From assembly GCF_053078305.1 (NCBI RefSeq), contig NZ_CP166879.1: 64,000 nucleotides of DNA. The stretch is one strand, 5' to 3'. The notes under the pieces were generated by a model. It did not search any database, had not been told where the DNA came from, and saw only the letters and a list, made by a program, of their open reading frames with translations. Numbering within the stretch: position 1 is the stretch's first letter; every line of letters starts with the position of its first letter. Below, one piece after another: positions 20,768-36,246 of the stretch. Position numbers and translations under genes: made by a program.

Positions 20768-21418
20768 TTAATTTGATTTATTCGCATCCATCAACGCTTT
20801 TAACTCCTCCGGCGTAAACGGTGGTTTGCGTCGGTGCAACATCGCATGGCAATTAGGGCACACAGGAAGTAAATCATTAACTGGATCCAGCAGGTAATCC
20901 TCTTTAATGGCTGAAAGCGGCACCAGGTGATGCATATGGATAAAGCCCTCAGCGATATCGCCATAGATCTTCACCAGATCAACGCCGCATACGTTGCACT
21001 GGCATCCGTGATATTCGACTGCTTTCTCGCGAGCTTTTTTATCGCGTTCATAGCTGTTTACCGTCACCTTTATCGCCGCACCTTCAACGTAGGTCCCCTG
21101 CGACGGCAACTCATCCGGGAACAGAACATCGGCTATGGGAGCCGCAGCGGCTTTATCCTGATGAATATGAAATCCCTGATCTATAAGTAGCTTGACGCAT
21201 TTAGATTTTATTCCGCCGGTGAAATCCGCAGGGGTAAATTGCGTCCCCGTCATCAATGTCGCTGCGATGCCAGCAATCGCCTTCGAGGGGTAACGTCGGC
21301 CATGATATTCAATCTCATACAACCGTGCAGGCTGGAACTGATGAGTTTCTCCCGCATCCCATAAATGAATAGCTTTGATGATATACCGCCGAGGAAGATG
21401 ATCGGGGAGTTTATTCAT
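20768..21418 (-). CDS. HNH endonuclease-domain protein (C-terminal CxxC...HH...CPNCH zinc/HNH motif) with uncharacterized N-terminal domain; possible modification-dependent restriction enzyme
   Basis: C-terminus CQCNVCGVD...HMHHLVPL...CPNCHAMLH read directly; no family assignment verified. Confidence 0.6.
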   Translation of the reverse strand: MNKLPDHLPRRYIIKAIHLWDAGETHQFQPARLYEIEYHGRRYPSKAIAGIAATLMTGTQFTPADFTGGIKSKCVKLLIDQGFHIHQDKAAAAPIADVLFPDELPSQGTYVEGAAIKVTVNSYERDKKAREKAVEYHGCQCNVCGVDLVKIYGDIAEGFIHMHHLVPLSAIKEDYLLDPVNDLLPVCPNCHAMLHRRKPPFTPEELKALMDANKSN

Positions 21419-21497
21419 GGAGAATGTCCTTATACGTTCTCAGAACAAGCAGCAAAAAAACAAATGAGATCAAAGTAATATATCTTCACTTGCAGGC

Positions 21498-22427
21498 TTG
21501 AACAGCAGAAAATTTGCGAGCATGATCGCAATTATTTCACTGCCAGGGATATCAATGGCTTCCAGTAAATCGCTACAGCAGGCAATTGCCAATATAAAAA
21601 TCTGGCATAAGGGTGAACAGCGCGCGCCGCATAAGCCATTGTTATTGCTATACGTATTAGCGGGATACCTGCATGGACATCCGCGCCTTTTCGATTATGG
21701 CTCGGAAATCTACGAACCTCTGCACAGTTTACTGGAACGTTTTGGGCCACAGCGTTCACAGTACCGACCTGATATGCCGTTCTGGCGATTACAAGGCGAC
21801 GGATTCTGGCAATTACACAATGCCGAGCGTTGCTCAACAGCAGGGAGCAGCCGACAACCGCCAGTGAAGGAACTGAACGAATACCACGTTGCAGGCGGTT
21901 TCGATGAACAGCACTACGCCCTGGTAACCGGCAATAAAAAACTCATCAATACTCTGGCGCAACAGATACTCGAAGCGCACTTCACCGAGAGTATTCAGGA
22001 AGAAATTGCTGACGAGCTGGGTTTTGATCTCCAGCAAATCCGTAAACAGCGCGACCCGTTATTTCGCAAAAATGTATTACGCGCTTATAAATACCAGTGC
22101 GCGATATGTGGCTTTAATATGCGCCACGACGACACCACCGTCGCGCTGGAAGCGGCGCATATAAAATGGAAACAGCACGGCGGTCCTTGTGAAATTCCTA
22201 ATGGCCTGGCGCTTTGCGCAATTCACCATAAAGCCTTTGATAAAGGATCGATTGGCCTGGACGAAAATATGCGGGTACTGGTATCAGATGCGGTAAACGG
22301 CGGAGGGATCGTTGAGAGATTATTCTGGGATTTTGACGGGAAAACTATTGCGTTGCCGCAGGTGCGTAAAAATTACCCTTATGAGGGGTTTGTGGAGTGG
22401 CATCGGAAAGAGGTTTTTAGGGGGTGA
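21498..22427 (+). CDS. HNH endonuclease-domain protein with ~180-aa N-terminal putative DNA-recognition domain (predicted restriction endonuclease type)
   Basis: C-terminal CAICGF...HIKWKQHGG...NGLALCAIHHKAFD HNH-like motif; divergent from preceding HNH gene. Confidence 0.6.
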   Translation: MNSRKFASMIAIISLPGISMASSKSLQQAIANIKIWHKGEQRAPHKPLLLLYVLAGYLHGHPRLFDYGSEIYEPLHSLLERFGPQRSQYRPDMPFWRLQGDGFWQLHNAERCSTAGSSRQPPVKELNEYHVAGGFDEQHYALVTGNKKLINTLAQQILEAHFTESIQEEIADELGFDLQQIRKQRDPLFRKNVLRAYKYQCAICGFNMRHDDTTVALEAAHIKWKQHGGPCEIPNGLALCAIHHKAFDKGSIGLDENMRVLVSDAVNGGGIVERLFWDFDGKTIALPQVRKNYPYEGFVEWHRKEVFRG

Positions 22428-22468
22428 GGTTGATAACTATCGCAGTATGTTCAATATTGCTGACATAA

Positions 22469-22651
22469 TCAGTGCAGGATCTTGCCGCTAGTTTACAACT
22501 CGCCTTCGATAGCGGCGCAAAACGAGTTCTGTTGCCGATATCCTCGGCTATGGATATTCCAACAGTTCCGGCAGAGTTGTTTACCAAGTTTCAGGTAAGT
22601 TTTTACTCAGAACCGGTTGATGCGGTTTATAAGGCGCTGGATGTGAATTAA
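22469..22651 (+). pseudogene. Start-less 3' gene fragment encoding a Lon-protease-like C-terminus (...GAKRVLLPISSAMDIPTVPAELF...VDAVYKALDVN*)
   Basis: 60-codon open frame without start, GC-rich island in AT-rich surroundings, resemblance to Lon C-terminal region (GIKxVLIP...) from memory. Confidence 0.35.
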
Positions 22652-23049
22652 CACATTCCTCAGCTTATTTATAAAAGGATTATTCCCATTTGATATAATA
22701 TCAGTGCCAATTTACTTTTTTCAATGGAATATATCTCGGCTAAATAACAATAAAACTTATCGCTAATGGATTAAATAAACAATTTTCTAATTCATTTCAC
22801 CACCTTTGATATAGAAATTGATGGTGTTGTCGCTGCCATTGCTTATGGTGATGATAAAATCCACGTTTCTGGATCGTTGCGTAGAAAATCATCACTACCT
22901 TGATATTTTGATGCGATATGATCATACCGTTCCGTAGTACCAATTTCAATTTCAGGCTAAACCCCAACATTAAAAAAATTAGAGTTATTCACTGATTATA
23001 TTATCAATAATATAATCAGTGAATAACATGGACTATATAATAAATTGCT

Positions 23050-25320
23050 CTAATCATTTCCCTTACGAATATATGGGCCAAAAGCCCAAGAATCATAATA
23101 AGGGTGATGGACTAGTTTTTCATTAAATCGAACACTATAAGTTAATTTTTTTATATTTTTACGTACAGCATTAATACTGGGCAAAGAGGAAAGATAATCT
23201 ATAAACTTATCGATAGTGATTTCCCCTTCGCAACACTCAAACCCATCAATGATATTTTTCGCCATTTTTCCATTTTCATTTGTTTGATATATCACTCCAG
23301 GTATTCGTTGAAAAAAACTAGATAATGCATATTTGTCCGCTACATATGTATCATCCACATGATATTTCCCACCGAGCATAGTTGTAGTAACAATAAGCTT
23401 ATACACACCTTTGGGTTGCCATGTTGATGGTAGTTCGAATTCTTTAATGATCACATCAAGATGATTAAGATAATGTTCAGAAATTCGATTTATTTGTTGA
23501 AAATAAGAACGCATAAATTTATTATTATGATCATGTATTAATGAGCTATCTCCAACGATGTTACACACTTGCTGATAGTACTTACCATAATATATTGGTT
23601 GACCATTTGATTTTAGTTCTGTAAAAATCAAACAATCATCCAGGAGAATCACGCAATCGCACTGATAATTAGCATGAGCATCAATTGGAGAAGCTTTAAT
23701 CCCCGCATCACGAACTTGTTTTATAAATTGTTGCTCATGAAATCGCCCTTTACTTGCTTGAGAAATTTTTTTGGAACCAAATAATGACATTAGAGAGCGA
23801 GTCACTGAGCTATTTGCTATTAATGCAGGCATTAAGCATAAACCGTCCATACAGGGAATAAATGGGCAATCATTAAGATCATGTGATTTTGAATTGAAGG
23901 TAAAATAATCTATCAGTTTTTTTGCTGCATCTGCTGCAATCCCCTTACGTTGAAAGAATGATAACCAACTCTCACGGCTTTTTATGATCAGCCAGCGATC
24001 CAACTGTAGGGGTATAGGTTTTGTCGATGAAAATCTTTTGCTCATTTCTTCTTTAGATAACTCGACTAAACATTGATAAGCGTGCACCCAATTAAATAAT
24101 GATATATTCCCATATTCTTCATGAAGGTCATCAGGAGATATATTTTCCAACTCGCTTAGATGAAATGAGCTAAAAACGCCATCAGAATTTAAGTAAGATG
24201 GCATATGATCCTTTACCCAACTATTTAGATGAAAATGTTTGTTACTAAATTCATGAACTTCGCTATATAGATGTGACGCTCTCATCATTAGTCTATTTCT
24301 TGCAATCTCATAATCTCGGTATAAACAAAAACTATCAACCTCAAGAGAGTAAATGTTATTATCCAATTTTGTAAATACTGCACTACTTAGTCTGAAAAAG
24401 TCTCTTACTCTGCTTAATGAGTCAAAAACATTCCACTCATTAAGGTACCCTCCCATTGAAAGCAAGGTTTGTTTATTCACACAAGAAGTTAGTTTCAATG
24501 GCTCATGAGTCCGTAAATAAGAAAATATTCGTCCGGTGTAATTGGCTACCTCATCAAATGCCCTATCGATAACTCGAAAATATTCGATATCAGGTTCAGC
24601 ATGAATATTAATATTTTCAGAAACGATTACTCTGCTTAATGAGTCAAAAACATTCCACTCATTAAGGTACCCTCCCATTGAAAGCAAGGTTTGTTTATTC
24701 ACACAAGAAGTTAGTTTCAATGGCTCATGAGTCCGTAAATAAGAAAATATTCGTCCGGTGTAATTGGCTACCTCATCAAATGCCCTATCGATAACTCGAA
24801 AATATTCGATATCAGGTTCAGCATGAATATTAATATTTTCAGAAACGATAAATAATGGAAAAATCCTCTTCATTTTTTTAGGATCATTGACCACAACCAA
24901 GGATGATAATGATGATAAAAACATCTCACAAAACATGATGAGATTAAGTATTAATGCATGTGATTTTTTTGTATTTTTACGCCAAATACCAGCACATTTT
25001 GTAGCCGCAAAGAAAGAATTATTTATATCATGCATAATTTTACATTGACTCTCGAACTCAGAAATTAGTTCAATGTTATCAGGAAATGAGTTTACTAGCT
25101 CATTAATACATTTTTTGAATGTATTGTTATACTCAACTTCAGTCTGAACTGAAAATCTATTATAATAGATGGAAGATATTCTCAGCACATCCAAGGCGAT
25201 ATCTATACTAATATCATCTCTTTTTATGTACTCACAAAAAAAAGAACAAAACTGTTTCGGGTCGTTAGCAAGATTACTAATTCTAGTGGTATCATAAACT
25301 TTTTCCATTTTTCCATACAT
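23050..25320 (-). CDS. Hypothetical 756-aa AT-rich orphan protein; C-terminal region has a PD-(D/E)xK-like motif (CDCVILLDD...FTELK)
   Basis: Long uninterrupted ORF, low GC, no recognisable family; nuclease motif is inference only. Confidence 0.6.
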   Translation of the reverse strand: MYGKMEKVYDTTRISNLANDPKQFCSFFCEYIKRDDISIDIALDVLRISSIYYNRFSVQTEVEYNNTFKKCINELVNSFPDNIELISEFESQCKIMHDINNSFFAATKCAGIWRKNTKKSHALILNLIMFCEMFLSSLSSLVVVNDPKKMKRIFPLFIVSENINIHAEPDIEYFRVIDRAFDEVANYTGRIFSYLRTHEPLKLTSCVNKQTLLSMGGYLNEWNVFDSLSRVIVSENINIHAEPDIEYFRVIDRAFDEVANYTGRIFSYLRTHEPLKLTSCVNKQTLLSMGGYLNEWNVFDSLSRVRDFFRLSSAVFTKLDNNIYSLEVDSFCLYRDYEIARNRLMMRASHLYSEVHEFSNKHFHLNSWVKDHMPSYLNSDGVFSSFHLSELENISPDDLHEEYGNISLFNWVHAYQCLVELSKEEMSKRFSSTKPIPLQLDRWLIIKSRESWLSFFQRKGIAADAAKKLIDYFTFNSKSHDLNDCPFIPCMDGLCLMPALIANSSVTRSLMSLFGSKKISQASKGRFHEQQFIKQVRDAGIKASPIDAHANYQCDCVILLDDCLIFTELKSNGQPIYYGKYYQQVCNIVGDSSLIHDHNNKFMRSYFQQINRISEHYLNHLDVIIKEFELPSTWQPKGVYKLIVTTTMLGGKYHVDDTYVADKYALSSFFQRIPGVIYQTNENGKMAKNIIDGFECCEGEITIDKFIDYLSSLPSINAVRKNIKKLTYSVRFNEKLVHHPYYDSWAFGPYIRKGND
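24406..24849. repeat. Perfect tandem duplication of a 222-bp unit (2 copies) inside the 756-aa ORF, in frame (74-aa duplication)
   Basis: Identical DNA blocks beginning tactctgcttaatgagtcaaaaacattcc at 24406 and 24628; protein repeat VIVSENINIHAEPDIEYFRV... x2. Confidence 0.9.
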
Positions 25321-25996: not shown

Positions 25997-26020
25997 GTGG
26001 TGCGAAGGCCGGACTCGAAC
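25997..26020. repeat. Direct repeat of leuX 3' end (attachment-site repeat) marking the distal boundary of the P4-like element
   Basis: tggtgcgaaggccggactcgaac matches leuX 3' end tggtgccgaaggccggactcgaac (38719-38742) at 23/24. Confidence 0.8.
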
Positions 26021-26285
26021 ATTTAATTAAACAACTGTATTTAAATAGTTTTTGTATTTAAAAATGAATTGATGCCCCTTTTTGTGCCCCCATTACCAAA
26101 ATAACAACCTAACCTTGTACTAAAAAAGAGATTTTTCAATGTAGGCACTCTGGTTCGGCTACGCTTACCGGAGACGAACCTGAACATAAGAAATCTGAGA
26201 TAACTTCATAGTAATCATCTTTAACACTTTTGACCAATAATATCTATCATAAAGGCAGAGAAATTAATCTCTGCCTTTATTAAGG

Positions 26286-27154
26286 TCACATAAAAAGATT
26301 ATTAATTAGAGTACACTGTTGACATCCATTAATATCTACAGCTTTTAAAAAATCTGTGTTACTAATCAAAACAGCATTACTAACACCTGAAAACTGCAGC
26401 TGTGCATACATACCTAAGATAGATTTTTTTTCGTAATACTGAGATCTTCCTGTATAACTTTCACCAGTATTAGAACTTATAAATCGCCTCGTTCTTTCTT
26501 GTATCAATAAATTATTTTTAAGGAAGCTCAAAATATCTTGCTGCAATTGTTTGTTTTTGTTATGAAAATAACATAACAATTGATCCTCTAAGGTACCAAG
26601 CTGAGTGTTAACGTCATGAAAAATATACCCCCCCATTCACTCCCATTAAACTCAATAATACTTCCATTGGAGAGTTGAGTAGTATCTTCTAAACCTATCT
26701 CATTTTTAATCTCTGTTATTCTGGCATCAATGCCAAGTTCATCAGCATCAAAAAAATATAAAAATCTATATGCAATTTCTATACTGAAGTCATCTGTACC
26801 AGAAAGTTCTTTATACATAGTGACTAACTCAGCCCTTTCACGACTTCTGCCATCACCATTTAGATTATGTATAAAAATTAAGTTCCCGTTATGATAGAAA
26901 CAAACAGAAGGTAGTTTTGGCCCGTTTGGCTGAAAGCCAAGTTTTTTATCTGGAATTCTTACTTGACTTAGTTCTTTTTCAAAGCGTTTATCAAACGGTG
27001 GAGGTAATTGACCAATTTTAAGATCTTGAAGTTGGAATCCATTAACTAAAAGAATTCTGCTAAGAAAAGCGACGTCATGCTGTCCTTCACAAAAGGCAAC
27101 TATGACTCTATTATAAGATACACTCACAATTTTAGCCTCTAATATCAAGATCAA
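26286..27154 (-). CDS. Toprim-like (OLD/DUF4435-like) putative nuclease partner, split into two overlapping frames (188 aa + 116 aa) by a frameshift at a G7 homopolymer (26628-26634)
   Basis: Candidate Toprim acidic residues (CEGQHD ... FFDADE); the two frames join if the run were G8; start ambiguous (TTG at 27154 or GTG at 27127 preceded by GAGG). Confidence 0.5.
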
Positions 27155-29369
27155 TATTTTTTATCAAATAGCCAAATCTTTCGCCATCAGCCCTTTTCAC
27201 TACTACTTTATCGTCAACTTTGCTTAACTGAAATCCAGTAATGCAATCATTATTATAATCATTATTTAAAAAAGCTCTGATACATTCACCCGAATGTGAC
27301 GTAAGGAACACTTGCACATTGAAACGTTCTGCAAGTTGTTGCGTAAATTTAGTAAACTCCAATAGTAAACTATAATGAATCGCAGTTTCAAATTCATCAA
27401 TAAAAAGTACACCGTTACGACATGCAGCAAAAGATAAAGCTATATAAAAGATGCGCTGAATACCCTCTCCATAAGAAGTAAGATCGAAACTTCTGTTAAA
27501 ATCATATGCTGATTCTACGATAAACCTTTTGAGCTCCATGTCTTCAGTAAATCTGACATCTTTTATCGTTGGCTCAATTTTATTCATGAATTCAATAACA
27601 AGGCCGATAGCGGATTGTATATTTAAATCATCTGATTCTGAGTCAGTTACAGACGTTAAATTTGCACCTATACTTTTGTTATAATCAGTGAGCAAATCGT
27701 CTATATCGTAGAAATAAGGGCTTTTAAATGACGATGAACACAAATGCGAAACTTGATCAGCGTTCCTTCTCATACGTTCATGGATAAAAGTATGGACTGT
27801 GTTATTTCTAAATTCTCCATCAATGCTAGACTTTAAGCTATAAGATGCTATATAGTCATCTTGTTTATCAATTGAAGAATCATCATATTTAATCATTTCA
27901 ACAGTAACATTACTATCATCAAATACTCCTGACAAGATTATTTTATCTTGGAAAAGAGCATTTAGCAATGTTGGACTCAAAGTACTGATTTTATTTTTTT
28001 GCCTAATAAGATTAAAATGCGATGAAATATCATTACGCTGCGTCAATAAGTAAATTGCTTCAAGCAATGAAGTTTTTCCAGCATTATTAAAGCCAGCAAT
28101 GATATTAATCTTATTGAAATTATCCAATGAGAAGTTTTTAAAGAATTTATATTTTTTGATATAAATGGATTTAAAATGTTTTTTTACTCCATACTCAAAA
28201 TTAGTTGTATAGTTTCCTCCTTCGATATTTATAGCCATCTGCTTTGGCATTATTTGTGTTAGTTTTTCTTTTGCATCATCTAATAAGCGCAAATCCTCTT
28301 GGTTTATGAGGCTACTATATAGATTTAAATCCTTTAAGGCGTCTTCAAGCTTGCTTAAAGCATTTTTATAGTTTTGCTGATTTACTGAACCGCTCGCAGC
28401 TAATCCTCTTGCAAGGCTACGTTCATCCTCCATTACCTTCAAGGCTTTTTCATTATTGATGAACAAAGCAAGATCTCGTATCTCAAGAGATTTAGTAATT
28501 ATAGGTTCTAGCTCAACGTATTCACCATTACTTTCCTCTTCAATATCATCTTCTAGCTCATTTTTCTCAAGGTATTCATCTGTTTTAGAGATCCACGAAA
28601 AAAGCCTATCAAGATTCACTAAATTTCTAGCATAATAACCGTTATCACTCCAGTCTAACCAAGATTTAATTACAGGCTTTTTGATTATTTCTTCAAAAAT
28701 ACCAAACATACTTGGTTCGAATTGCTCACCATACTCACTTGTTTTATATAAGGAAATTAGATTATAAACTCTAAGCATAGAGCGAAGACGCGTTTTAGAA
28801 ATACCGAGCGAACTAACTAGCTCATCTTCTTTTTCAACATACTCATCTCGAGTTTTGTCTTCATATGGTTTTAAAAAATCATAAAGCAGTTTGGACTGAT
28901 TATATGTTGACCACTTTTTATTACCACTTATATGCTTTAATCCCATTACAATCAGATGTTTTTCAACATCTTGATTATTATGGATTTCGAAAGGAACACT
29001 TCTAAAAATAGATGGATCTAGTTTTCCAATATCAAACCCCTTTTCATATGCTTCTTGCAATGCTTTCAGCGCCGTTACACGACGATTTCCCTCAAGGACT
29101 AAATAATTGTTATCTCCTAAATCCTTTACTTGAATAACATCAACATCTAAGTATCCATTAGATTTAAAACTTGCTATTAGATCTTTGATATTCTCTTGTC
29201 TATTTCCTTCTATAAAAAAGCGAGTCCTACGCTGAATTGTTGGATCTAGCATGTCCTTTTCTGAGACTGGCTTGTGCTGGTCATTGTCAACAAAACGGTA
29301 GTTATTAGGATCTAGAAATAAATTTTTTAAATTTTTGCTAATGCGCGGGCGAATTTGCTCGACATTCAT
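27132..29369 (-). CDS. ParB/Srx-like N-terminal domain fused to ABC-type (AAA_15/21, OLD/AriA-like) ATPase; putative anti-phage defence ATPase
   Basis: N-terminal LVLEGNRRVTALKAL (ParB GxRR-like); C-terminal Walker A GFNNAGKTS, signature-like SYGEG, Walker B VLFIDEFE, H-loop TSHS; GAGGTGA RBS before ATG. Confidence 0.65.
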   Translation of the reverse strand: MNVEQIRPRISKNLKNLFLDPNNYRFVDNDQHKPVSEKDMLDPTIQRRTRFFIEGNRQENIKDLIASFKSNGYLDVDVIQVKDLGDNNYLVLEGNRRVTALKALQEAYEKGFDIGKLDPSIFRSVPFEIHNNQDVEKHLIVMGLKHISGNKKWSTYNQSKLLYDFLKPYEDKTRDEYVEKEDELVSSLGISKTRLRSMLRVYNLISLYKTSEYGEQFEPSMFGIFEEIIKKPVIKSWLDWSDNGYYARNLVNLDRLFSWISKTDEYLEKNELEDDIEEESNGEYVELEPIITKSLEIRDLALFINNEKALKVMEDERSLARGLAASGSVNQQNYKNALSKLEDALKDLNLYSSLINQEDLRLLDDAKEKLTQIMPKQMAINIEGGNYTTNFEYGVKKHFKSIYIKKYKFFKNFSLDNFNKINIIAGFNNAGKTSLLEAIYLLTQRNDISSHFNLIRQKNKISTLSPTLLNALFQDKIILSGVFDDSNVTVEMIKYDDSSIDKQDDYIASYSLKSSIDGEFRNNTVHTFIHERMRRNADQVSHLCSSSFKSPYFYDIDDLLTDYNKSIGANLTSVTDSESDDLNIQSAIGLVIEFMNKIEPTIKDVRFTEDMELKRFIVESAYDFNRSFDLTSYGEGIQRIFYIALSFAACRNGVLFIDEFETAIHYSLLLEFTKFTQQLAERFNVQVFLTSHSGECIRAFLNNDYNNDCITGFQLSKVDDKVVVKRADGERFGYLIKNIDLDIRG

Positions 29370-29634
29370 ATGTCACCTCAATGGTGTAGGAACTATACAA
29401 TGCAACTTTACTTGATACCTCAGCAATCAACAACTTCATGTTTTTGAAACTAAGCGCGCGCAGCCCCGCACGCCTGCCCGCTTCGCTTAACAGACTGGTT
29501 TTCATGCACCTCATAAATCGTCTCAGAAGCCACCAAACAAGGGTTTTCTCGTCAAAAATGGTGCATAAGACTCATGCGTTTTCATGCGCCATAGACATGC
29601 ACTCATTCGCTCTCATGCCAGCCAGGAAAAGGGG

Positions 29635-29662
29635 ATAAAAAATCCCGGTACTGGACCGGGAT
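29635..29662 (-). terminator. Rho-independent terminator after the delta/Ogr gene
   Basis: Stem atcccggt-loop-accgggat followed by T-run on the minus strand. Confidence 0.55.
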
Positions 29663-29682
29663 TACGTGGGCGTTCTTTCTAA

Positions 29683-29964
29683 TCAGACAGGAATCTGCTG
29701 ACGGCTTGACAGTTTTGACGCGGAGCCATAGCGATTAAGTGTTTGCTGTTGTTTTTCCGGGGATTGTGCTTTGTCTGATAGCTGTTCATTGCGTCGGGGT
29801 TTCATGATTATCTTATCCACACTCTCCAGTGCCGTAAATGTGCAGGAACATTCCAGATTCTGGCACTGATACCACGAGCGTTTAACTGACGGAGCTTCAT
29901 AGGCTGCTGTTCTGGCGTGTGCAACTGTACCGCATTCCGGACATTTAAGTGCCATTAATATCAC
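29683..29964 (-). CDS. Ogr/Delta-family zinc-finger late-gene activator
   Basis: MALKCPECGTVAHARTAAYEA...WYQCQNLECSCTF matches the Ogr C4 zinc-finger pattern. Confidence 0.8.
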   Translation of the reverse strand: MILMALKCPECGTVAHARTAAYEAPSVKRSWYQCQNLECSCTFTALESVDKIIMKPRRNEQLSDKAQSPEKQQQTLNRYGSASKLSSRQQIPV

Positions 29965-30512
29965 TCCTGTATATCGTTAATGTCATTCAGGCGTTGCTGA
30001 AAACGCAGATGTTGTGCCGGGGTGTAAGAGCCCTGGCAATCACGAATCATCCCGGGGTCAGGCATCAAACCGGATTCATCCAGGATCTCACGATAATCCC
30101 CGGCAATTTCAGGCGGTGTTATTGTCAGCTGGCGAACCAGAGCACTGCGTAATATACGGGACGCAACGTCAACCCCTCCGCGCCCCTTCAGGAACGGAGC
30201 CAGTGCAGATGTCAGGGCTGCCCCATTCGCCTGCATAAAATTGCTGAGAGCGGCTTCTGTGCAGGCTTCCATCAGTAAATGCTGCGAGTAAATGCATTCG
30301 CGCGCAGCACAGTTAATTTGCCATTTCAGCACATCCAGACGTTCCCGCAGTAATTCGAGCTGTCGGGCATAATCTGCTGGTTTTTCTGTGGCAGCGAGGA
30401 GAGATGCTATCTGTTGTTCAACGGCTTTTCGGCTCTCACTATGTCCGGCCCACAGAATACGGGCATTCCGAAAACTGGTAAGTGCCTGGTCAGGCGTGCC
30501 TCGGGCCGTCAT
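29961..30512 (-). CDS. P4-like late-operon protein (tentatively Psu-like)
   Basis: 183-aa helical protein in late operon between Sid-like and delta genes; assignment by size and position only. Confidence 0.4.
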   Translation of the reverse strand: MTARGTPDQALTSFRNARILWAGHSESRKAVEQQIASLLAATEKPADYARQLELLRERLDVLKWQINCAARECIYSQHLLMEACTEAALSNFMQANGAALTSALAPFLKGRGGVDVASRILRSALVRQLTITPPEIAGDYREILDESGLMPDPGMIRDCQGSYTPAQHLRFQQRLNDINDIQE

Positions 30513-31252
30513 ACTGCTTTCTCCTTCTCAGCAAGTTCCTGACGAACCTTAATTTTATGCATAGCTGCCGGAGAGAGTTGATTACTGAAATCCAGACGCG
30601 CCGCATAATCCGGGGCAATTCCCGCCAGTTTAAACACCGGGTCCTGTTCAGGCATCGCATCGTTAGCCAGAGCCGGTCTGGTGATATGTTTATGAATAAA
30701 GTCTTTCAGCACTGTGTCCGGGTCATTAACTGAATTCACCACACCCACAACGGCACTGGCTTCCCGGCCCATTGTGGATTTAAGCAGGCTCAGCGTCTGA
30801 ATAAGCGCTTTTCCATGCGATTGCATAAAATCTTCCCAGATTTGTTTTGCGCGAATATCCACAAGAATGTTATGCGCGTGGATATACTTTCCGGCTAATT
30901 CCGCAGCTTTCTGCGGCAAAAGTGCATTTTCGCTTTCCTGAGCCGCCAGCAGCTCATCAAAATCCTCAAGCGTTTCTCGTCCCAGCGCAATTTCCGTGCG
31001 CAGTTTTTTCATTTCCTTTGAAACCACGCCCTGACTTTCACGAAACAGCGTGCGCCACTCCTCATTCAGTGTGTTCGTCGTGGCTTCCATCTCAGCGCGA
31101 CGCTGGCGGATTGTCGCAATATTATCCGCTGCCGCTTTCTGCTGACGACGTGCTTCAAGCCATGCGTTTCTGGCTGTGTTCATGGTTTCCAGTGCCCGCT
31201 GCGTTACAGCCGGAAAAGTGGAAAGGTTGTTATTCACTGCGGTGTTGTTCAT
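30509..31252 (-). CDS. P4-like late-operon protein (tentatively Sid-like capsid size-determination scaffold)
   Basis: 247-aa helical/coiled-coil-like protein, first gene of late operon; assignment by size and position only. Confidence 0.4.
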   Translation of the reverse strand: MNNTAVNNNLSTFPAVTQRALETMNTARNAWLEARRQQKAAADNIATIRQRRAEMEATTNTLNEEWRTLFRESQGVVSKEMKKLRTEIALGRETLEDFDELLAAQESENALLPQKAAELAGKYIHAHNILVDIRAKQIWEDFMQSHGKALIQTLSLLKSTMGREASAVVGVVNSVNDPDTVLKDFIHKHITRPALANDAMPEQDPVFKLAGIAPDYAARLDFSNQLSPAAMHKIKVRQELAEKEKAV

Positions 31253-31430
31253 GGCTTCTCCTGTCGGGTTGGTTCGTTACGTCAATTGTGTCGTGGCTGA
31301 CACAAGCACACTATCGGTGCTCAGTGTGTGGTGGCTGGCACAACGGGCGCTTGCGGTTATTCAGACGTGGCTATGAAAGCCAGCCAGATAAAAATGCCCT
31401 CAGTTTCAGTCTGCTTTATGTCCCTGATGC

Positions 31431-31618
31431 GGTGGAACAGGTGAAACATGTGTTACAGCTTTGTTTTATAAAGCACTTATATACACTGCACCGGTGGAAC
31501 ATCGCGGGTAACAAGGTGGAACAGCGGATTGGCTGGCGTTACATCTGTTCCACCTCACTATTTCAGAAGGTGGAACAGGTTCAGCCCTGTAAAATACGGT
31601 TGTTCCACCTGTTTCACC
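31431..31618. repeat. Iteron array (GGTGGAACA / TGTTCCACC, at least 7 copies in both orientations); probable P4-type ori/crr alpha-binding sites
   Basis: Repeats read directly downstream of the alpha gene; resemble the P4 TGTTCACC iteron. Confidence 0.6.
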
Positions 31619-31652
31619 TGTTACCCTTAATAAATAAGACTCACGCAAAGCC

Positions 31653-34325
31653 TTAACCCGGCACCTCGCTGTTGAAGACATAGAGCCTGCGGGGATTCAT
31701 CTCTGGCGGGCGAATGGTTGTCTGGAGTTTGCCATCAGTGGAGGGCAGCAGGTATCCACGATCTGCGCACAGACGAGCCACCTTGCGCGGGTCAAATCCC
31801 CTGCAGATTTCTTTCCAGCCGGACGGCATGACATAGAACGTAGTGACAGCTTCCGTGCCCTGCGCGGTACTGCCTTTCTCCACCCTGCGCCAGCCCACCA
31901 TATTGCCGGGGCGGTTGCGCTCGTCATACCAGTCTGCAAAGCGGCTGTACTGATTCGCGGTAAAGAAACTGCGAACCTGCTCCAGTGCGGCAATATCTTC
32001 CTGATTGGCGGTGTGCCCGCGATCTTTCAGCCATGCGTTCAGGCAGACGCGGGTTGCCCGCAGTGCTTCACCCTCAGGCCAGCCGGTGATACCCAGACGG
32101 GTTGCCAGTTCACCCGCCATCGCCACCAGTGCAAAGCGATTCACAGCCCGGCCCACCTGGTTGCCTGCATCTTTCGGAGTCAGGGCGGCAGCATATTCCT
32201 TCATCAGCGATTTTGCCTGTGCCGTTAGTCCGTTAAGATCAGCGGTCAGTGCTTTCAGCCACTCCCGGAACGGCGAACCGTAGTAGCAGGACGTGGCCCA
32301 TTCAAGATGCTCTGCCAGAGCCTTGCCGCTGTCGAAGCCGTGCAGCTCCTCAAAAACGCCAAACTTCCCGGAATCGCTGGGGATCTGGATCATCCTGACT
32401 TCCATCCCGGCAAAAGTACGCTCACCGGCCTTTGCCGCATGTTCGGTCAGAGATAACTCGCCAGTTGAAAAGAACAACAGGCGCCACTGCTTACGGGTAC
32501 GCAGCTCACCGTCCGTACCGGCACGACCCTTGCCCTGACCGTTTGCCAGCATGTAGGCGATACTGCCTGCCTCGCGTCCGTCAACTTCCCGGATCTCATC
32601 AAGCATCATGGCGGCATCGTTGCGGCGGCTGGCGCATCCCTCCAGCGCGTTGCCGGTGGCCCGCCATGTCTGCCAGTAGTCAGGCCCGCCGCAGACGGAG
32701 GTTGCCGCTTTCATGGTGGTGGTCTTACCGTCTGTCGATTCCCCTTTGAGGTGGTAGCCGCCGCCGTCCATACCAACCAGCCGTAACAGTGGTGCAGCAA
32801 AGGCCAGGCTGACAGCAAATGCCACGCGGGAGTTGCCGGTACAGTAGCGGGATACGTTCTCCCGCCATTCCTCTGTTGTACCCGACACGCGGAAATCACG
32901 CCCCTGCACGGAAGTGGTCTGGAGAATGACACCCTCTGCACCTTCACCGCTGACCTCATCCTGCAGGACGTAAACCTGACCATGCCAGCCAGTACGGCTG
33001 ACGCAGGTCACGCGGCGTTCCGGTTTACACAGTGAGATATATTCCATCAGGCGTGCGCGTGCCTCACCGGTGGTGCTGATATAAGACAGCCCGTTAACCA
33101 GCAGTACCCGGCGCAGTTCCTCACCACTGCCGCTCAGCATTTCCATCGGCATCGCCCAGCGGCGACGCTCACCCCATGTATCTTCCCATTCCAGCAGTCG
33201 TCCGAAGTTACCGCCATCGGCATCGCAGGTGATTGCCGTAACGCGCAGCGGGCTGCATATTTTGACGTTCTGGATCTCCGTCTCACCGTTGCGCTGTACC
33301 TGCTTTTCATACCAGAGATATTCCTGGGTAAGACGGAACCCGTGCGGCAGTTGCGTGCGGCCTTCCCCGCACAGTACCAGACCGTTGCGAAAGACTTCAC
33401 GGGCACGGGTAATACCGTGCTCCCGATGAAAGTCATTCCAGTCAGCCTTAATCTCTCCTGGTGGCAGCGTCATCCAGCCGCCAACAGCTTTTGCCGCCCG
33501 TTCAGCAAAGGCTCTGCCGGGATTCTCCCCCCCGTCCTGAAAATCGTTATCACCGGCGATGATAATTTTTACCTCAGGCCAGCGTGCCCGCAGCGACTGC
33601 GCCACATTGGGCAGGTTGCCCGCAGATATGGCAGCCACTACGCATCCGGCAGTGAGCTGGCTTACCGTCAGCGCCGTAGCGTAACCTTCGGTAATCACCA
33701 CCTGTACCGGTGGTTCAGACGGTAACGGGCTGAGCGACACAAACGCGCCTTTCATCGTGCTGCCGGGCAGTATGCTTTTTTCACCCGTCGGGGCGATAAG
33801 CTGTGCACCGGTCACGGCTCCGGTGTTGGTCGTGAGTGGTAACAGCAGAGAACCGGCAGGAAAATCCTTACCGCTGATATGCTGCACGCTTCCGGTCAGA
33901 GAGGCTGGGTATCCGGCGAACCCTTTTCCTGTCAGATAGGCGCTTTCTCCCGTGTGGCTCTCTTTCATCAGCGCCGCCACGGTAAGACCCATGTCGCGTT
34001 TAGGGGCTTTTTGTCTGGCAGGCTTAACAGGCAGTTCCTGCACATCCGGCACATTAAGCATCTGCGCCACCTCCTGCGCAGCCTTTCTGACGCTGTAACC
34101 GGTTACGAGCTTAACCAGATCCAGACCGTCACCATTGCCACACTGGCTGCAGATCCACGTCCCGCGCCCGTCAAGGTCATCAAGGCGAAAACGATCCTTG
34201 CCCCCACATTTCGGGCAGGGACCGTGCCTGCCGTTTTCAGGTACATCAATACGCAGCATCTGCAGAATAACGGGCCATTTCCCCCGCGCGGCGGCTGAAA
34301 TCTGCGTAACCGTCTGTATTGTCAT
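31653..34325 (-). CDS. P4 alpha-like primase/helicase replication protein
   Basis: 890 aa; N-terminal Cys-rich zinc-binding region (CPKCGG...CSQCGN), ATP-binding GESTDGKTT motif. Confidence 0.8.
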   Translation of the reverse strand: MTIQTVTQISAAARGKWPVILQMLRIDVPENGRHGPCPKCGGKDRFRLDDLDGRGTWICSQCGNGDGLDLVKLVTGYSVRKAAQEVAQMLNVPDVQELPVKPARQKAPKRDMGLTVAALMKESHTGESAYLTGKGFAGYPASLTGSVQHISGKDFPAGSLLLPLTTNTGAVTGAQLIAPTGEKSILPGSTMKGAFVSLSPLPSEPPVQVVITEGYATALTVSQLTAGCVVAAISAGNLPNVAQSLRARWPEVKIIIAGDNDFQDGGENPGRAFAERAAKAVGGWMTLPPGEIKADWNDFHREHGITRAREVFRNGLVLCGEGRTQLPHGFRLTQEYLWYEKQVQRNGETEIQNVKICSPLRVTAITCDADGGNFGRLLEWEDTWGERRRWAMPMEMLSGSGEELRRVLLVNGLSYISTTGEARARLMEYISLCKPERRVTCVSRTGWHGQVYVLQDEVSGEGAEGVILQTTSVQGRDFRVSGTTEEWRENVSRYCTGNSRVAFAVSLAFAAPLLRLVGMDGGGYHLKGESTDGKTTTMKAATSVCGGPDYWQTWRATGNALEGCASRRNDAAMMLDEIREVDGREAGSIAYMLANGQGKGRAGTDGELRTRKQWRLLFFSTGELSLTEHAAKAGERTFAGMEVRMIQIPSDSGKFGVFEELHGFDSGKALAEHLEWATSCYYGSPFREWLKALTADLNGLTAQAKSLMKEYAAALTPKDAGNQVGRAVNRFALVAMAGELATRLGITGWPEGEALRATRVCLNAWLKDRGHTANQEDIAALEQVRSFFTANQYSRFADWYDERNRPGNMVGWRRVEKGSTAQGTEAVTTFYVMPSGWKEICRGFDPRKVARLCADRGYLLPSTDGKLQTTIRPPEMNPRRLYVFNSEVPG

Positions 34326-34705
34326 ACTTCCCCCTGATACAACGTCACACCGGTACTGCAGAAGTCATCAAAGGCCGCCGGAAGCGTGCGGTACATCTCC
34401 GCCATCACTTCACAGCCGCGCGCGGTCAGTACCGGCGGCGCGGTCAGCAGTGACGGCTCCAGCATGTCAGTCAGCAGTGCCAGCGCGGCAGCGGCGCCCT
34501 GTGCTTCGCCGTACTCGTTAATCAGTGCGCACTCGATATGCAGCGCAATGGCCATTTCAATACGCTCCACCGTCAGGCTGTGCGGACCATACTGATCACT
34601 GCCAGTTTCGTTCAGCATTTTCTGCCGCCATGCTGAAGCAATAGCCCGTCGGTAAAGCGCGGTGGTCATTTCTGCCGGGAAAATGGAAACCTGCGGCTGG
34701 TTCAT
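34322..34705 (-). CDS. Hypothetical P4-like early protein
   Basis: 127-aa ORF overlapping alpha start by 4 nt (translational coupling). Confidence 0.5.
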   Translation of the reverse strand: MNQPQVSIFPAEMTTALYRRAIASAWRQKMLNETGSDQYGPHSLTVERIEMAIALHIECALINEYGEAQGAAAALALLTDMLEPSLLTAPPVLTARGCEVMAEMYRTLPAAFDDFCSTGVTLYQGEV

Positions 34706-34986
34706 CTGGCACCTCCTTCAATCAGTGCGCAGCTGTGTGCAATATCCGTCAAATCTGCCCGCAGGTACTCCATCAGCGCGGCGACACCAGGCGCACAGCC
34801 TGCGTCCAGTGCTCCGGCCTGAGACGGGTATTCAGAAAAGAGAAGCTGGAGCATGTCGCAGGCATTTCTTGCGCGGATCAGCTTTCCGAAACCGTCCTCT
34901 GACAACCCATAGGCAAAAGCACCGGTATTGTGTTTTTCAGGCAAAGTGTGGCCCTGAGCACCGTTGTGCCCGTTTGAAATATTCAT
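34702..34986 (-). CDS. Hypothetical P4-like early protein
   Basis: 94-aa ORF overlapping the next gene by 4 nt. Confidence 0.45.
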   Translation of the reverse strand: MNISNGHNGAQGHTLPEKHNTGAFAYGLSEDGFGKLIRARNACDMLQLLFSEYPSQAGALDAGCAPGVAALMEYLRADLTDIAHSCALIEGGAR

Positions 34987-35017
34987 CGTGAATTACTCCG
35001 TTTTCAGCGGTATTTTG

Positions 35018-35407
35018 TCAGAGAAACTTTGAATAGTGACCGTCGTCAGGCTCAGCAGAACGCCGTATGGTACGCTCCCGCCAGCGGATAAATAGCACAG
35101 ACGGATGCAGTGTCAGCGGGCCGGAACCACTACTGCCTGCAGGAGCTGGTGCAGGCTTAAAGAGCGGTACATCAAACAGGCGCGTATACCGCTGTTCAAA
35201 CCATGCCAGAGGGCAGGAAGAAAGCTGGTTGTCGCTGTCATGACGTATCAGCACTTCACAGCTGAATTCAGGATTAACCAGCGCCACAGAGGGCGAGGCT
35301 TCTATTAATCGGATAATCGTGACCGTCCAGCCACGTTCATGCCGCCAGCGTTCGCCGGGGTGCGGATAATTACGCATGTTCACCTCCGCAGGGAATGCGC
35401 CCGGCAA
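35018..35407 (-). CDS. Hypothetical P4-like early protein (true start possibly the internal Met at ~35377)
   Basis: 129-aa ORF in the same early-operon orientation. Confidence 0.4.
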   Translation of the reverse strand: MPGAFPAEVNMRNYPHPGERWRHERGWTVTIIRLIEASPSVALVNPEFSCEVLIRHDSDNQLSSCPLAWFEQRYTRLFDVPLFKPAPAPAGSSGSGPLTLHPSVLFIRWRERTIRRSAEPDDGHYSKFL

Positions 35408-35621
35408 AGCTCAGTACACAGTCCGGGGCAAGTCTGCGCCGCGCTGACCGCTCATTATCTGCGGTGAGCCTTAACATCACAGGACGGGCATTGCGTTGAC
35501 TGCGGTTGATCGCCGCAAATAACCAGGTACACTTCTGTTTAGCCATCTTCGTTACCTCATATAGCGGATTGGTCAGAAGCCCGGTTAGTGTTGCTGCACT
35601 GTCGGGCTTCGCACTCACAAG

Positions 35622-35713
35622 GTGAATCGCACCTTTAATTTTAAAGCTACCCTTAAGTGAATCGCACTTCAAGCTTTTTATTATCATTTTTTTTGCGTAT
35701 ACTGAATCGCACC
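35622..35713. promoter_or_regulatory. Three direct repeats of GTGAATCGCAC (35622, 35657, 35702) in the divergent control region; putative operator
   Basis: Repeats read directly upstream of the 61-aa + strand ORF and the early operon. Confidence 0.45.
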
Positions 35714-35733
35714 TAACGCGAGGAGATCCAGTA

Positions 35734-35919
35734 ATGGCAACGAGTTCAACTAACAACAAGTCGCAGCAACTTAATGCTCGTTTCCCACATGATGTAGTTG
35801 CAGAATTAGAAAGCAACCTTGAAGATGGAGAAACGAAAGCGCAATTCATTGTTACTGCTGTAAAAGGCGAGATTAAACGCCGACAGCGCAGGAAAAATAA
35901 GCCAGAGCAAGGAAGTTGA
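35734..35919 (+). CDS. Small basic protein (61 aa), possible DNA-binding regulator
   Basis: ORF with GAGGAG RBS; basic C-terminus (IKRRQRRKNK); no family verified. Confidence 0.4.
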   Translation: MATSSTNNKSQQLNARFPHDVVAELESNLEDGETKAQFIVTAVKGEIKRRQRRKNKPEQGS

Positions 35920-36030
35920 ATAGAGAAGCCAACAGACGTTCTCTCTGGTCCCATGTTAATTTCAGTAAGCGACAATATTTTTAAGCCCACAAATTCATTA
36001 TGTCGGGCTTTTTTATTAGTGATTTTCATA

Positions 36031-36246
36031 TCACTCACCACGAGAGGCATATATTTGCTCTTGAATCCAGTGATCAACTTCGCTTTCAACGAATGAAATT
36101 GCACGAGTTCCTATTTTCACCGGACGGGGAAATGTATTGTTTGCAAGCTGTTTGTAAAGCCATGCCTTGCTACGCTGAACGCGTCTTAATACCTCTTTTG
36201 CTGAGATAAGAGTCTGATTATCTGAAAAGCTGTTTGCATATTCCAT
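36031..36246 (-). CDS. alpA: AlpA-family phage transcriptional regulator / excisionase-like protein
   Basis: ...ISAKEVLRRVQRSKAWLYKQLANNTFPRPVKIGTRAISFVESEVDHWI AlpA-like HTH. Confidence 0.75.
   Translation of the reverse strand: MEYANSFSDNQTLISAKEVLRRVQRSKAWLYKQLANNTFPRPVKIGTRAISFVESEVDHWIQEQIYASRGE

What the first reader, a model, noticed from the sequence alone, without database searches (positions are those of the whole stretch)
26286..29369. Candidate anti-phage cassette at the P4-like satellite hotspot: ParB/Srx-ABC ATPase fusion plus Toprim-like partner
Two co-oriented genes sit at the cargo position of a P4-like satellite (between the late sid/psu/delta-like genes and the distal att repeat), which is a recognised defence hotspot. 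The 745-aa protein joins an N-terminal ParB/Srx-like domain (LVLEGNRRVTALKAL) to a C-terminal ABC/OLD-type ATPase (Walker A GFNNAGKTS, signature-like SYGEG, Walker B VLFIDEFE, H-loop TSHS). The downstream ~290-aa product has Toprim-like acidic motifs (CEGQHD, FFDADE), and the two genes abut or overlap (27127-27154). ATPase plus Toprim recalls PARIS (AriA/AriB), AbiL and OLD/Gabija, but the roughly 400-aa ParB-type N-terminal extension on the ATPase is not part of those systems as I recall them, so this may be an undescribed variant.
Basis: partly seen in the sequence, partly recalled or inferred. Interest (0 to 1): 0.85.

Follow-up and report, generated by a model that had tools for sequence, protein, structure and literature searches.

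The report
ParB-ATPase plus Toprim defence candidate, broken
The cargo slot of a P4-like phage satellite holds a two-gene candidate anti-phage system, a ParB-like/ABC-ATPase fusion plus a Toprim-like nuclease, that PADLOC already lists as the untested candidate PDC-M38; in this window its nuclease gene is broken by a one-base deletion.

Summary
Gene A (27132-29369, minus strand, 745 aa) has an N-terminal ParB/Srx-like region followed by an OLD/AbiL-type ABC ATPase. Gene B follows after 4 nt. It is 280 aa when intact and has a Toprim-like fold of the DUF3226/PH0156 type, with an invariant Glu and DxD.

In the window B is split by a G7 tract (26628-26634). At least 30 of the 34 complete E. coli genomes that carry the cassette have the extra base there, and the three read all annotate an intact 280-aa gene.

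The pair is the last cargo before the distal att repeat of a P4-like satellite inserted at tRNA-Leu.

The architecture is not undescribed. PADLOC model PDC-M38A matches A end to end (E=0), and PDC-M38B matches both fragments of B. PDC-M38 is one of 145 untested candidates found by "guilt by embedding". I found no experiment or mechanistic description.

The pairing of fusion and B is conserved across four phyla. It is sometimes embedded between type III Mod and Res genes.

It is not PARIS, AbiL, Menshen or OLD by membership, but it most likely works like them: a sensor ATPase that holds and then releases or activates a nuclease. The ParB module is the probable nucleotide- and DNA-sensing part.

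Novelty is moderate, interest is moderate, and this copy is probably inactive.

The parts
27132..29369 (-). Gene A: 745-aa fusion of a ParB-like region and an ABC ATPase (PDC-M38A). It is 100% identical to WP_044189384.1.
   Evidence: ORF. PADLOC PDLC04607 gives E=0 over residues 1-745 against profile positions 1-715 of 715. Identity to the STEC276 protein.
28980..29342 (-). ParB-N/Srx-like domain of A (about residues 10-130). It carries the invariant LDPNNYRF (19-26) and EGNRR (93-97) at a strand-helix junction.
28185..28967 (-). Helical ParB/KorB-like DNA-binding region (about residues 135-240) plus a conserved alpha/beta linker region (about 240-395) of A.
27135..28175 (-). OLD/AbiL-type ABC ATPase domain of A (residues 399-745). 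Motifs: Walker A G426-S434, signature Y633-G636, Walker B D658/E659, H-loop H692.
   Evidence: Pfam AAA_21 over 421-693 at 2.4e-16, plus AAA_15. PADLOC AbiLi 1.3e-36, short PDC-M38A models, NsnB and AriA. Motif conservation.
26286..27127 (-). Gene B (PDC-M38B): a DUF3226/PH0156-type Toprim-like protein, 280 aa when intact. In the window it is a pseudogene. The reading frame from GTG 27127 ends at 26588 after 179 aa, of which the last 12 are out of frame.
26628..26634 (-). Frameshift site: a G7 run (C7 on the plus strand) where intact copies have G8 (codons TGG GGG GGT, encoding W-G-G).
   Evidence: Alignment with STEC276. All 30 listed full-length E. coli matches span 3302 nt against the 3301-nt query. 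The tract is lineage-specific.
26251..26278 (-). Perfect 11-bp stem with a 6-nt loop, 7 nt after B's stop codon. It is the probable transcription terminator of the cassette.
   Evidence: Read directly from the sequence. The consensus scan did not report it, because the T-run criterion was not met.
26000..26020 (.). Distal att repeat of the satellite (gtgcgaaggccggactcgaac). It is a copy of the tRNA-Leu 3' end at 38720-38741.
   Evidence: An empty-site comparison shows the outer flank abutting tRNA-Leu in other genomes.
29683..31252 (-). P4-type late genes directly upstream of the cassette: sid-like (30509-31252), psu (29961-30512) and ogr/delta (29683-29964). A terminator-like hairpin follows at 29641-29663.
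   Evidence: PHROGs hits. RefSeq annotation of the identical element. Hairpin.

Best explanation
This is a copy of the two-gene candidate anti-phage system that PADLOC calls PDC-M38. It is carried as accessory cargo at the cos-proximal hotspot of a P4-like satellite integrated at leuX.

Protein A is a sensor and switch. It has a ParB-type module that probably binds nucleotide and DNA: a ParB-N/Srx fold with a GERR-like EGNRR motif, followed by a ParB/KorB-like helical DNA-binding region. This module is fused to an OLD/AbiL-family ABC ATPase. Protein B is a stand-alone Toprim-like metal-dependent nuclease of the DUF3226/PH0156 type and is the effector.

By analogy with PARIS, AbiL, Septu and Menshen, I infer the following sequence:
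1. Oligomers of A hold B inactive.
2. A phage cue sensed through the ParB module (phage DNA, a DNA mimic or an anti-restriction factor) changes the nucleotide state of the ATPase.
3. B is released or activated.
4. B cuts tRNA or DNA and aborts the infection.

In this window the effector gene carries a -1 frameshift in a G8 tract. That removes its conserved C-terminal half, so this copy is probably inactive, or the base call at the homopolymer is wrong.

Shown here: the domain identities, the conserved catalytic-type residues, the strict A-B pairing, the mobile and defence-associated contexts, and the frameshift. Inferred: the defence function itself, the roles of sensor and effector, the trigger and the substrate.

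The confidence of 0.6 is a blend: about 0.95 for identity and architecture, about 0.7 for a defence function, and about 0.35 for the specific sensor-release mechanism.
For: Identity:
- PADLOC PDC-M38A matches A at E=0 over the full length, and PDC-M38B matches both fragments of B.

ATPase:
- Pfam AAA_21 and AAA_15.
- Walker A, signature, Walker B and H-loop are conserved in 117 homologues.

ParB module:
- LDPNNY/FRx and (V/I)EGNRR are kept in five distant homologues whose partner B is only about 25-30% identical where measured, or matches the B profile at only E about 1e-28 to 1e-31.

Effector:
- 23 of 40 homologues hit DUF3226.
- Foldseek matches the retron Eco2 structure 9lm3.
- E13, D126 and D128 are invariant, as are further C-terminal residues.
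- The HHpred table in Rousset 2022 links AriB to DUF3226 at 96.8%.

Pairing:
- In 17 of the 18 distinct loci with complete upstream sequence, B is directly preceded by a 705-750-aa fusion. One of these is split into two ORFs, and the exception is a 629-aa variant. The loci span Gammaproteobacteria, Campylobacterota, Firmicutes and Verrucomicrobiota.

Defence context:
- P4 hotspot (Rousset 2022, PMC9122126).
- Embedded between type III Mod and Res genes.
- Next to a Septu-like pair.
- PDCs were defined by embedding in BREX, DISARM and type I RM systems.

Frameshift:
-.
Against: - No experiment exists. PDC systems are explicitly untested. The related ATPase+Toprim candidate HEC-01 gave no protection in that study.
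- B shows no detectable sequence match to AriB, AbiLii or DUF4435. AriB is not among the top structural matches. The PARIS analogy is therefore architectural only.
- Many loci are solitary, among housekeeping genes.
- No complex model or nucleotide-binding test could be run.
- One variant lacks the ParB-N part, so that part is not absolutely required for pairing.
Confidence: 0.6

Rival explanations
1. The pair guards restriction systems, in the manner of PARIS or PrrC. It monitors a restriction system, or detects anti-restriction proteins or DNA mimics such as Ocr or ArdA. The ParB-like DNA-binding surface acts as the decoy that DNA mimics bind. B is then released as a suicidal nuclease.
For: - Several homologous pairs lie exactly between type III Mod and Res genes.
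- The PDC-M38 families were first found embedded in BREX, DISARM or type I RM systems.
- PARIS, which shares the P4 hotspot, senses Ocr (PMC9122126, PMC11464382).
Against: - In the window and in most genome loci the pair stands alone, with no adjacent restriction system.
- No trigger is known.
- This is a refinement of the main explanation rather than a true alternative.
Confidence: 0.2
2. The roles are reversed or shared. The ParB/Srx domain of A is itself the effector, acting as a DNA nickase or as an NTP- or CTP-depleting NTPase as proposed for Osa, DndB and plasmid ParB nucleases. B is then an accessory, regulator or antitoxin-like partner.
For: - ParB/Srx proteins with nuclease or NTPase activity are known in conflict systems (cited in PMC10853773 and PMC12839542).
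- The truncated-B state in the window leaves A fully intact.
Against: - B keeps the full Toprim catalytic signature invariantly: E and DxD.
- The EGNRR motif resembles the nucleotide-binding GERR of ParB clamps more than the motifs of nuclease-type or DUF262-type ParB proteins. This rests on established ParB knowledge and is an inference.
- A variant without ParB-N still pairs with B.
Confidence: 0.12
3. The pair is not an immune system. It is an addiction (toxin-antitoxin-like) or maintenance/partition-related module that serves the satellite or other mobile elements. Its defence-like context reflects only the general cargo of mobile elements.
For: - ParB folds are classically used in partition and plasmid maintenance.
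- ATPase-plus-nuclease pairs can behave as toxin-antitoxin systems, as described for PARIS.
- There are no phage data.
Against: - No ParA partner was seen among the annotated neighbours of the three E. coli copies read or among the neighbours checked in eight of the other loci. parS-like sites were not looked for.
- The pair occurs in chromosomes among housekeeping genes and inside restriction operons.
- The P4 locus is an experimentally supported reservoir of defence genes (PMC9122126; 10.64898/2026.02.27.708500).
- The nearest ATPase relatives are all defence ATPases.
Confidence: 0.08
4. The frameshift is a sequencing or assembly error at a homopolymer, so the window's cassette is in fact intact and functional.
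For: - It is the only difference across gene B apart from one synonymous-looking substitution.
- Protein A is 100% identical to intact loci.
- All 30 listed related genomes have the extra base.
- A G8 run is a classic site for indel errors.
Against: - G8 runs are also true hotspots for slippage mutation.
- Decayed copies occur elsewhere (L013, L023).
- This cannot be resolved from the sequence alone.
Confidence: 0.4

Closest known systems
PADLOC candidate PDC-M38 (Payne et al. 2024, guilt by embedding)
   Same: It is the same two families in the same order. Model PDLC04607 covers the whole ParB-ATPase fusion (E=0), and PDLC04613 covers B.
   Different: PDC-M38 is only a catalogue entry: it is untested, and the text gives no domain or mechanistic description. 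The PADLOC family also includes short, ATPase-only A models of 362-383 aa. The window copy has a frameshifted B and sits in a P4-like satellite, not inside a BREX, DISARM or type I RM system.
AbiL (AbiLi ATPase + AbiLii Toprim; Lactococcus)
   Same: It is a two-gene ABC ATPase plus separate Toprim/OLD-like nuclease. A's ATPase domain matches the AbiLi model end to end (residues 399-738, E 1.3e-36).
   Different: AbiLi has no ParB-like N-terminal region of about 395 aa. B does not match AbiLii models.
PARIS (AriA + AriB), also found at the P4 hotspot
   Same: It has an OLD-family ABC ATPase and a separate Toprim effector, sits in the same satellite hotspot, and the sequester-and-release logic is plausible. 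A matches AriA models at 3.6e-18. DUF3226 is a remote relative of AriB's DUF4435.
   Different: B has no DUF4435 or AriB match. AriB is absent from the top structural matches. AriA lacks a ParB module. The Ocr trigger and tRNA-Lys target are not established here.
Menshen (NsnA ParB-DUF262 + ParBDB; NsnB OLD-ABC ATPase; NsnC nuclease)
   Same: It has the same three functional parts: a ParB-superfamily domain with an adjacent DNA-binding domain, an OLD-type ABC ATPase, and a nuclease effector that can be of Toprim fold (PMC12065111). A matches the NsnB model at 6.7e-19.
   Different: Here the ParB and ATPase parts are one polypeptide. The ParB type is GERR-like (EGNRR), not DUF262 (DGxQR), and there is no DUF262 Pfam hit. 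The effector lacks an inPIN adaptor domain and is of DUF3226 type.
OLD family nucleases / Gabija GajA
   Different: In OLD and GajA the ATPase and Toprim are fused in one protein. Here they are separate genes, and the ATPase carries a ParB module instead.
PH0156 / DUF3226 (PDB 2p62)
   Different: It is an archaeal protein of unknown function, with only 12% identity. No function can be transferred from it.

Membership tests
PDC-M38 (PADLOC candidate) | The A protein matches a PDC-M38A HMM. | tested here: met
   PDLC04607: E=0, 1109 bits, residues 1-745 against profile positions 1-715 of 715.
PDC-M38 (PADLOC candidate) | An adjacent, co-oriented B protein matches a PDC-M38B HMM. | tested here: met
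   PDLC04613 matches the two fragments at 8.6e-82 and 5.3e-52. The fragments are contiguous in the profile (2-168 and 163-278) and start 4 nt downstream of A.
PDC-M38 (PADLOC candidate) | Both genes are intact (not pseudogenes). | tested here: not met
   A -1 frameshift (G7 against G8) truncates B after residue 167.
PARIS | AriA-type AAA_15/AAA_21 ABC ATPase. | tested here: inconclusive
   AAA_21 and AAA_15 hits are present. AriA models score only 3.6e-18 and 5.4e-14, weaker than the AbiLi and PDC-M38A models.
PARIS | AriB effector with a DUF4435 (PF14491) domain. | tested here: not met
   Intact B has no Pfam hit even at E<=10. Its homologues hit DUF3226 only. No AriB PADLOC hit.
AbiL | AbiLi-type ATPase. 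| tested here: met
   PDLC02336 AbiLi at 1.3e-36 over residues 399-738 against profile positions 2-335 of 340. This holds for the ATPase domain only; A has about 395 extra N-terminal residues.
AbiL | AbiLii-type partner. | tested here: not met
   The B fragments hit only PDC-M38B models at E<=0.01.
Menshen | NsnA with a ParB-DUF262 domain (motifs QRxxxW, DGxQR, FxxxN). | tested here: not met
   No DUF262 Pfam hit. The motif is EGNRR. Feature definition from PMC12065111.
Menshen | Three separate genes: NsnA, NsnB (with C-terminal DUF3696) and NsnC (inPIN plus nuclease). | tested here: not met
   There are two genes, with ParB and ATPase fused. No DUF3696 hit. B starts directly with the Toprim-like core.
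OLD family nuclease (classes 1, 2) / GajA | ABC ATPase and Toprim nuclease in one polypeptide. | tested here: not met
   They are separate ORFs here and in every homologous locus. None of the 150 best B-family representatives listed (of 505 at E<=0.001) is longer than 348 aa.
Toprim superfamily | Toprim fold with a conserved Glu after strand 1 and a DxD motif after strand 3. | tested here: met
ParB/Srx superfamily | ParB-N fold with a GxxR nucleotide-binding motif at a strand-helix junction. | tested here: met
ParB/Srx superfamily | Binding or hydrolysis of CTP or another NTP, and DNA binding. | not testable with these tools
   This requires biochemistry. Only motif and fold resemblance are available.
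P4-like satellite defence hotspot | Cargo between the psu/delta late genes (cos-proximal) and the end of the element, within an att-bounded P4-like satellite. | tested here: met
   tRNA-Leu, int, alpha, sid, psu and delta identified, att repeats and an empty-site comparison. Hotspot definition from PMC9122126.

The most novel reading that the evidence does not exclude
A ParB-type nucleotide-gated (possibly CTP-gated) DNA-clamp module has been recruited as the infection sensor of an OLD-ABC/Toprim abortive-infection system. It is fused directly to the ABC ATPase, so two different nucleotide switches act in series to license a DUF3226-type nuclease. This would be a mechanistic class not represented among characterised defence systems. 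It would also give the first function for DUF3226/PH0156 proteins.
Probability: 0.25. Interest if true: 0.7.

Novelty: new variant of a known kind. Interest (0 to 1): 0.45.

Why it matters
ABC-ATPase-plus-nuclease pairs such as PARIS, AbiL, Septu, Gabija and Menshen are a major theme in bacterial immunity. How they sense infection is known for very few of them.

This family hard-wires a ParB-like nucleotide- and DNA-binding module onto the ATPase and keeps it almost unchanged across four phyla. That points to a direct nucleic-acid sensing route that could be tested.

The family is small: about 500 clusters at 50% identity among 1.84 billion representatives. It is compact (3.1 kb) and occurs intact in E. 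coli satellites, so it is easy to clone.

It would also assign a function to DUF3226/PH0156, a structural-genomics orphan.

The discovery value is limited for two reasons. The architecture is already catalogued as PDC-M38, and the copy in this window is apparently broken.

Tried and rejected
- Sequence searches of A, B and their profiles against PDB sequences found nothing meaningful.
- A Pfam scan of intact B found no hit even at E<=10. DUF3226 appears only through its homologues.
- NCBIfam gave only sub-threshold ATPase and ParB hits for A and nothing for B.
- Literature searches for 'PDC-M38' and 'DUF3226' returned zero papers.
- The ABC-ATPase classification paper (Krishnan 2020) is not held. 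I could not check whether a ParB-OLD-ABC fusion is mentioned there.
- The P4/P2 hotspot papers and their supplements do not list these proteins. One supplement file was truncated.
- I rejected PARIS, AbiL, Menshen and OLD membership because each failed a defining feature (see the membership table).
- I rejected the idea that the G tract is a conserved phase-variation device, because only the E. coli/Klebsiella lineage has it.
- I considered that the 756-aa ORF next door belonged to the cassette. It lies outside the att repeat, in a different island.
- I expected distant B relatives to pair with short, ATPase-only A proteins, as the PADLOC short models suggest. All three sampled pair with ParB fusions of 722-727 aa. 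The contexts of the short forms remain unexamined.
Full report
**1. What is in the sequence**

Gene B begins four nucleotides after A's stop codon, at GTG 27127. In the window it is split into two overlapping ORFs, 26588-27154 and 26286-26636. Alignment with E. coli STEC276 shows why: the window has seven G's at 26628-26634 where STEC276 has eight. Apart from that there is one other substitution in 1 kb.

Intact B is 280 aa (WP_049091835). The window's frame from GTG 27127 gives 167 native residues, then 12 out-of-frame residues, then a stop. Protein A is 100% identical to WP_044189384.

The cassette occurs in 34 of 5,426 complete E. coli genomes. All 30 listed matches span 3,302 nt against the 3,301-nt query, so they carry the extra base. 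Three were inspected and all annotate an intact 843-nt B gene.

The G8 run exists only in the E. coli/Klebsiella lineage. More distant homologues encode WGC or ISC without a run. It is therefore a lineage-specific slippery site, not a conserved switch. I cannot tell from the sequence whether G7 is a real mutation or a homopolymer base-calling error.

**2. Context**

- The window holds tRNA-Leu(CAA) at 38718-38802.
- Next to it lie an integrase (37291-38574), the P4 alpha-type primase (31653-34325), a sid-like gene (30509-31252), psu (29961-30512) and ogr/delta (29683-29964) (RefSeq labels).
- A terminator-like hairpin (29641-29663) and a spacer of about 270 nt precede gene A.
- The tRNA 3' end (38720-38741) is repeated at 26000-26020 with a one-base indel.
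- Other E. coli genomes have the sequence to the left of 26020 running directly into tRNA-Leu.

The satellite therefore spans about 26000-38741, and A-B is its last cargo. This is the psu-proximal hotspot described by Rousset et al. (PMC9122126).

**3. What the proteins are**

*Protein A, C-terminal half (residues 399-745).* This is an ABC ATPase. Pfam gives AAA_21 at 2.4e-16 plus AAA_15. PADLOC gives AbiLi 1.3e-36 (end to end), NsnB 6.7e-19, AriA 3.6e-18, and weaker GajA, Old and PtuA hits. Walker A (G426...K432), the signature (YGEG), Walker B (D658-E659) and the H-loop (H692) are conserved in 117 full-length homologues.

*Protein A, N-terminal region (residues 1-395).* Sequence methods give only sub-threshold ParB signals:
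- ParB_N at i-E 0.2.
- TIGR00180 at 8e-5, below its cut-off.
- 17 of 22 family members at E<=0.1, but none at E<=0.001.
- A few homologues carry a precomputed PF02195 hit.

The invariant E93-G-N-R-R97 sits at a strand-helix junction. From established knowledge of ParB proteins, this is where canonical ParB carries its nucleotide-binding GERR motif. I conclude that A starts with a ParB-N/Srx-like domain, followed by a ParB/KorB-like helical DNA-binding region and a further conserved region of unknown fold.

*Protein B.* Intact B has no Pfam hit of its own, but 23 of 40 homologues hit DUF3226. Its AF2 model has pLDDT 84.6 and pTM 0.83.
- In Foldseek only PH0156 was significant. A weaker match was the retron Eco2 structure (9lm3), which I recall carries a Toprim domain.
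- E13, D126 and D128 are invariant, as are C12, G14, H16, D17 and G90; D91 is nearly so. So is a C-terminal set (E180, K234, S235, Q242-L-Q244) that the window's truncated product lacks.
- An HHpred table in Rousset et al. links AriB to DUF3226 at 96.8%. DUF3226 is therefore a remote relative of the PARIS effector family.

The Toprim-like call is supported at the level of fold and motif.

**4. Is it a system?**

I sampled homologous loci in two ways: exact-protein look-ups and a scan of one genome per species.

Of the 18 distinct loci with complete upstream sequence, 17 have B directly preceded, in the same orientation, by a 705-750-aa protein that matches both the N-terminal and full-length A profiles. 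The taxa include Pantoea, Erwinia (A split into two ORFs), Sulfurospirillum, Sulfurovum, other Campylobacterota, Lachnospiraceae, Acetatifactor, Pedosphaera (Verrucomicrobiota) and Marithrix, where B is only a remnant.

The motifs LDPNNY/FRx and (V/I)EGNRR persist even where B is only 25-30% identical to the window's. One variant (L007/L008) is 629 aa. It replaces the first 130 or so residues with unrelated sequence but keeps the middle region and the ATPase.

The B family is small: 505 clusters at 50% identity reach E<=0.001 among 1.84 billion representatives. None of the 150 best listed is longer than 348 aa, so B does not appear fused to the ATPase.

Contexts support a mobile defence module:
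- The pair lies between type III Mod and Res genes in six loci of three distinct kinds (L002-L005, L009, L010).
- It lies next to a dcm methylase in L017.
- It lies next to a Septu-like PDC-M62 pair in L006.
- Elsewhere it is solitary, among housekeeping genes.

**5. Comparison with what is known**

PADLOC-DB v2 model PDLC04607 (PDC-M38A, 715 positions) matches A over its whole length at E=0, and PDLC04613 (PDC-M38B) matches both halves of B. The exact architecture, ParB extension included, is therefore already catalogued.

PDC systems are 145 untested "phage defence candidates". They were derived from genes embedded in BREX, DISARM and type I RM systems (Payne et al., bioRxiv 10.1101/2024.01.29.577857). 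Two cassette families were assigned to PDC-M38. The held literature contains no paper that mentions PDC-M38 or DUF3226. The P4-hotspot studies do not list these proteins.

By membership it is not any of the following:
- PARIS, because there is no DUF4435/AriB.
- AbiL, because there is no AbiLii match.
- Menshen, because the ParB is not of DUF262 type, there are two genes rather than three, and there is no inPIN domain (PMC12065111).
- An OLD or GajA protein, because ATPase and Toprim are on separate polypeptides.

In functional logic it combines features of two of these. Like Menshen, it has a ParB-superfamily sensor, an OLD-type ABC ATPase and a nuclease. Like PARIS and AbiL, it is a compact two-gene ATPase-plus-Toprim pair, and PARIS sits in the same satellite hotspot.

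**6. Most likely mechanism**

This section is inference. A probably oligomerises through its ABC heads and holds B inactive. The ParB-like module binds a nucleotide and DNA, or a DNA mimic. An infection cue then alters ATPase head engagement, and B is released or activated. B is a metal-dependent Toprim nuclease that would act on tRNA or DNA and cause abortive infection.

The embedding in restriction operons makes a guard-of-restriction variant of this model plausible.

Other readings remain open:
- The ParB domain is itself a nuclease or NTPase effector.
- The pair is an addiction or maintenance module.
- The frameshift is a sequencing error.

The report sections weigh each of these.

**7. 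Verdict**

The domain interpretation is supported. The claim that the architecture may be undescribed is not, because it is PDC-M38.

What remains new is biological rather than a matter of cataloguing. A strongly conserved fusion of a ParB-type module to an OLD-family ABC ATPase, partnered with a DUF3226 Toprim-like protein, has no experimental or mechanistic description that I could find. The copy in this window appears to be inactivated.

I rate it a new variant of a known kind, with interest 0.45.

Noticed in passing
window 24405-24849 (inside ORF 23050-25320, minus strand): A perfect 222-bp tandem duplication (2.0 copies, 100% identity). It is in frame (74 codons) within a 756-aa hypothetical protein. 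Other E. coli genomes match this region over about 3,400-3,430 bp instead of 3,651, so they lack the second copy.
   Followed up: partly
window 20768-25320: Outside the satellite's distal att lies a small island. It holds an HNH endonuclease (20768-21418, minus strand), an HNH/type IV-like 'phosphorothioated DNA-binding restriction endonuclease' (21498-22427, plus strand) and the 756-aa hypothetical protein. In genomes without the satellite this island abuts tRNA-Leu directly.
   Followed up: partly
L002-L005, L009, L010: Homologous A-B pairs are inserted exactly between a type III methyltransferase (Mod) and a type III restriction enzyme (Res). In L002-L005 an ArdA anti-restriction gene lies just downstream; L002-L004 also show a rolling-circle Rep-like gene there, while L005 ends before it. 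This suggests a mobile element that carries both defence and anti-defence genes.
   Followed up: partly
L006 3251-6555: Directly after a PDC-M38 pair lies a second candidate pair, PDC-M62: a 727-aa PtuA-like ATPase plus a 374-aa HNH/PtuB-like protein. Together they form a two-system mini-island.
   Followed up: partly
L007 665-2554 and L008 428-2317: A 629-aa variant of A. Its first 130 or so residues are unrelated to ParB (no LDPNNYRF, no GNRR), while the middle region and the ATPase are conserved and B follows as usual. This may be a swap of the sensor domain.
   Followed up: partly
L013 4753-7005; L023 7001-7153: Decayed copies occur elsewhere. In an Erwinia MAG, A is split into two ORFs. 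In Marithrix, A is intact but only a remnant of about 51 aa of B is detectable.
   Followed up: no
window 29370-29682: A strong terminator-like hairpin (29641-29663) follows the ogr/delta gene. After it comes a GC-rich cos-proximal spacer and a good Shine-Dalgarno sequence (GAGGTG) before gene A. The consensus scan found no convincing sigma-70 promoter.
   Followed up: no
L001 24427-25842, against window 36623-37261: In STEC276 the otherwise identical satellite carries an IS1 insertion in the gene next to the integrase, and IS2, IS30 and IS3 copies beyond the cassette. The window's copy of that 212-aa gene (phrog_30524) is uninterrupted.
   Followed up: no
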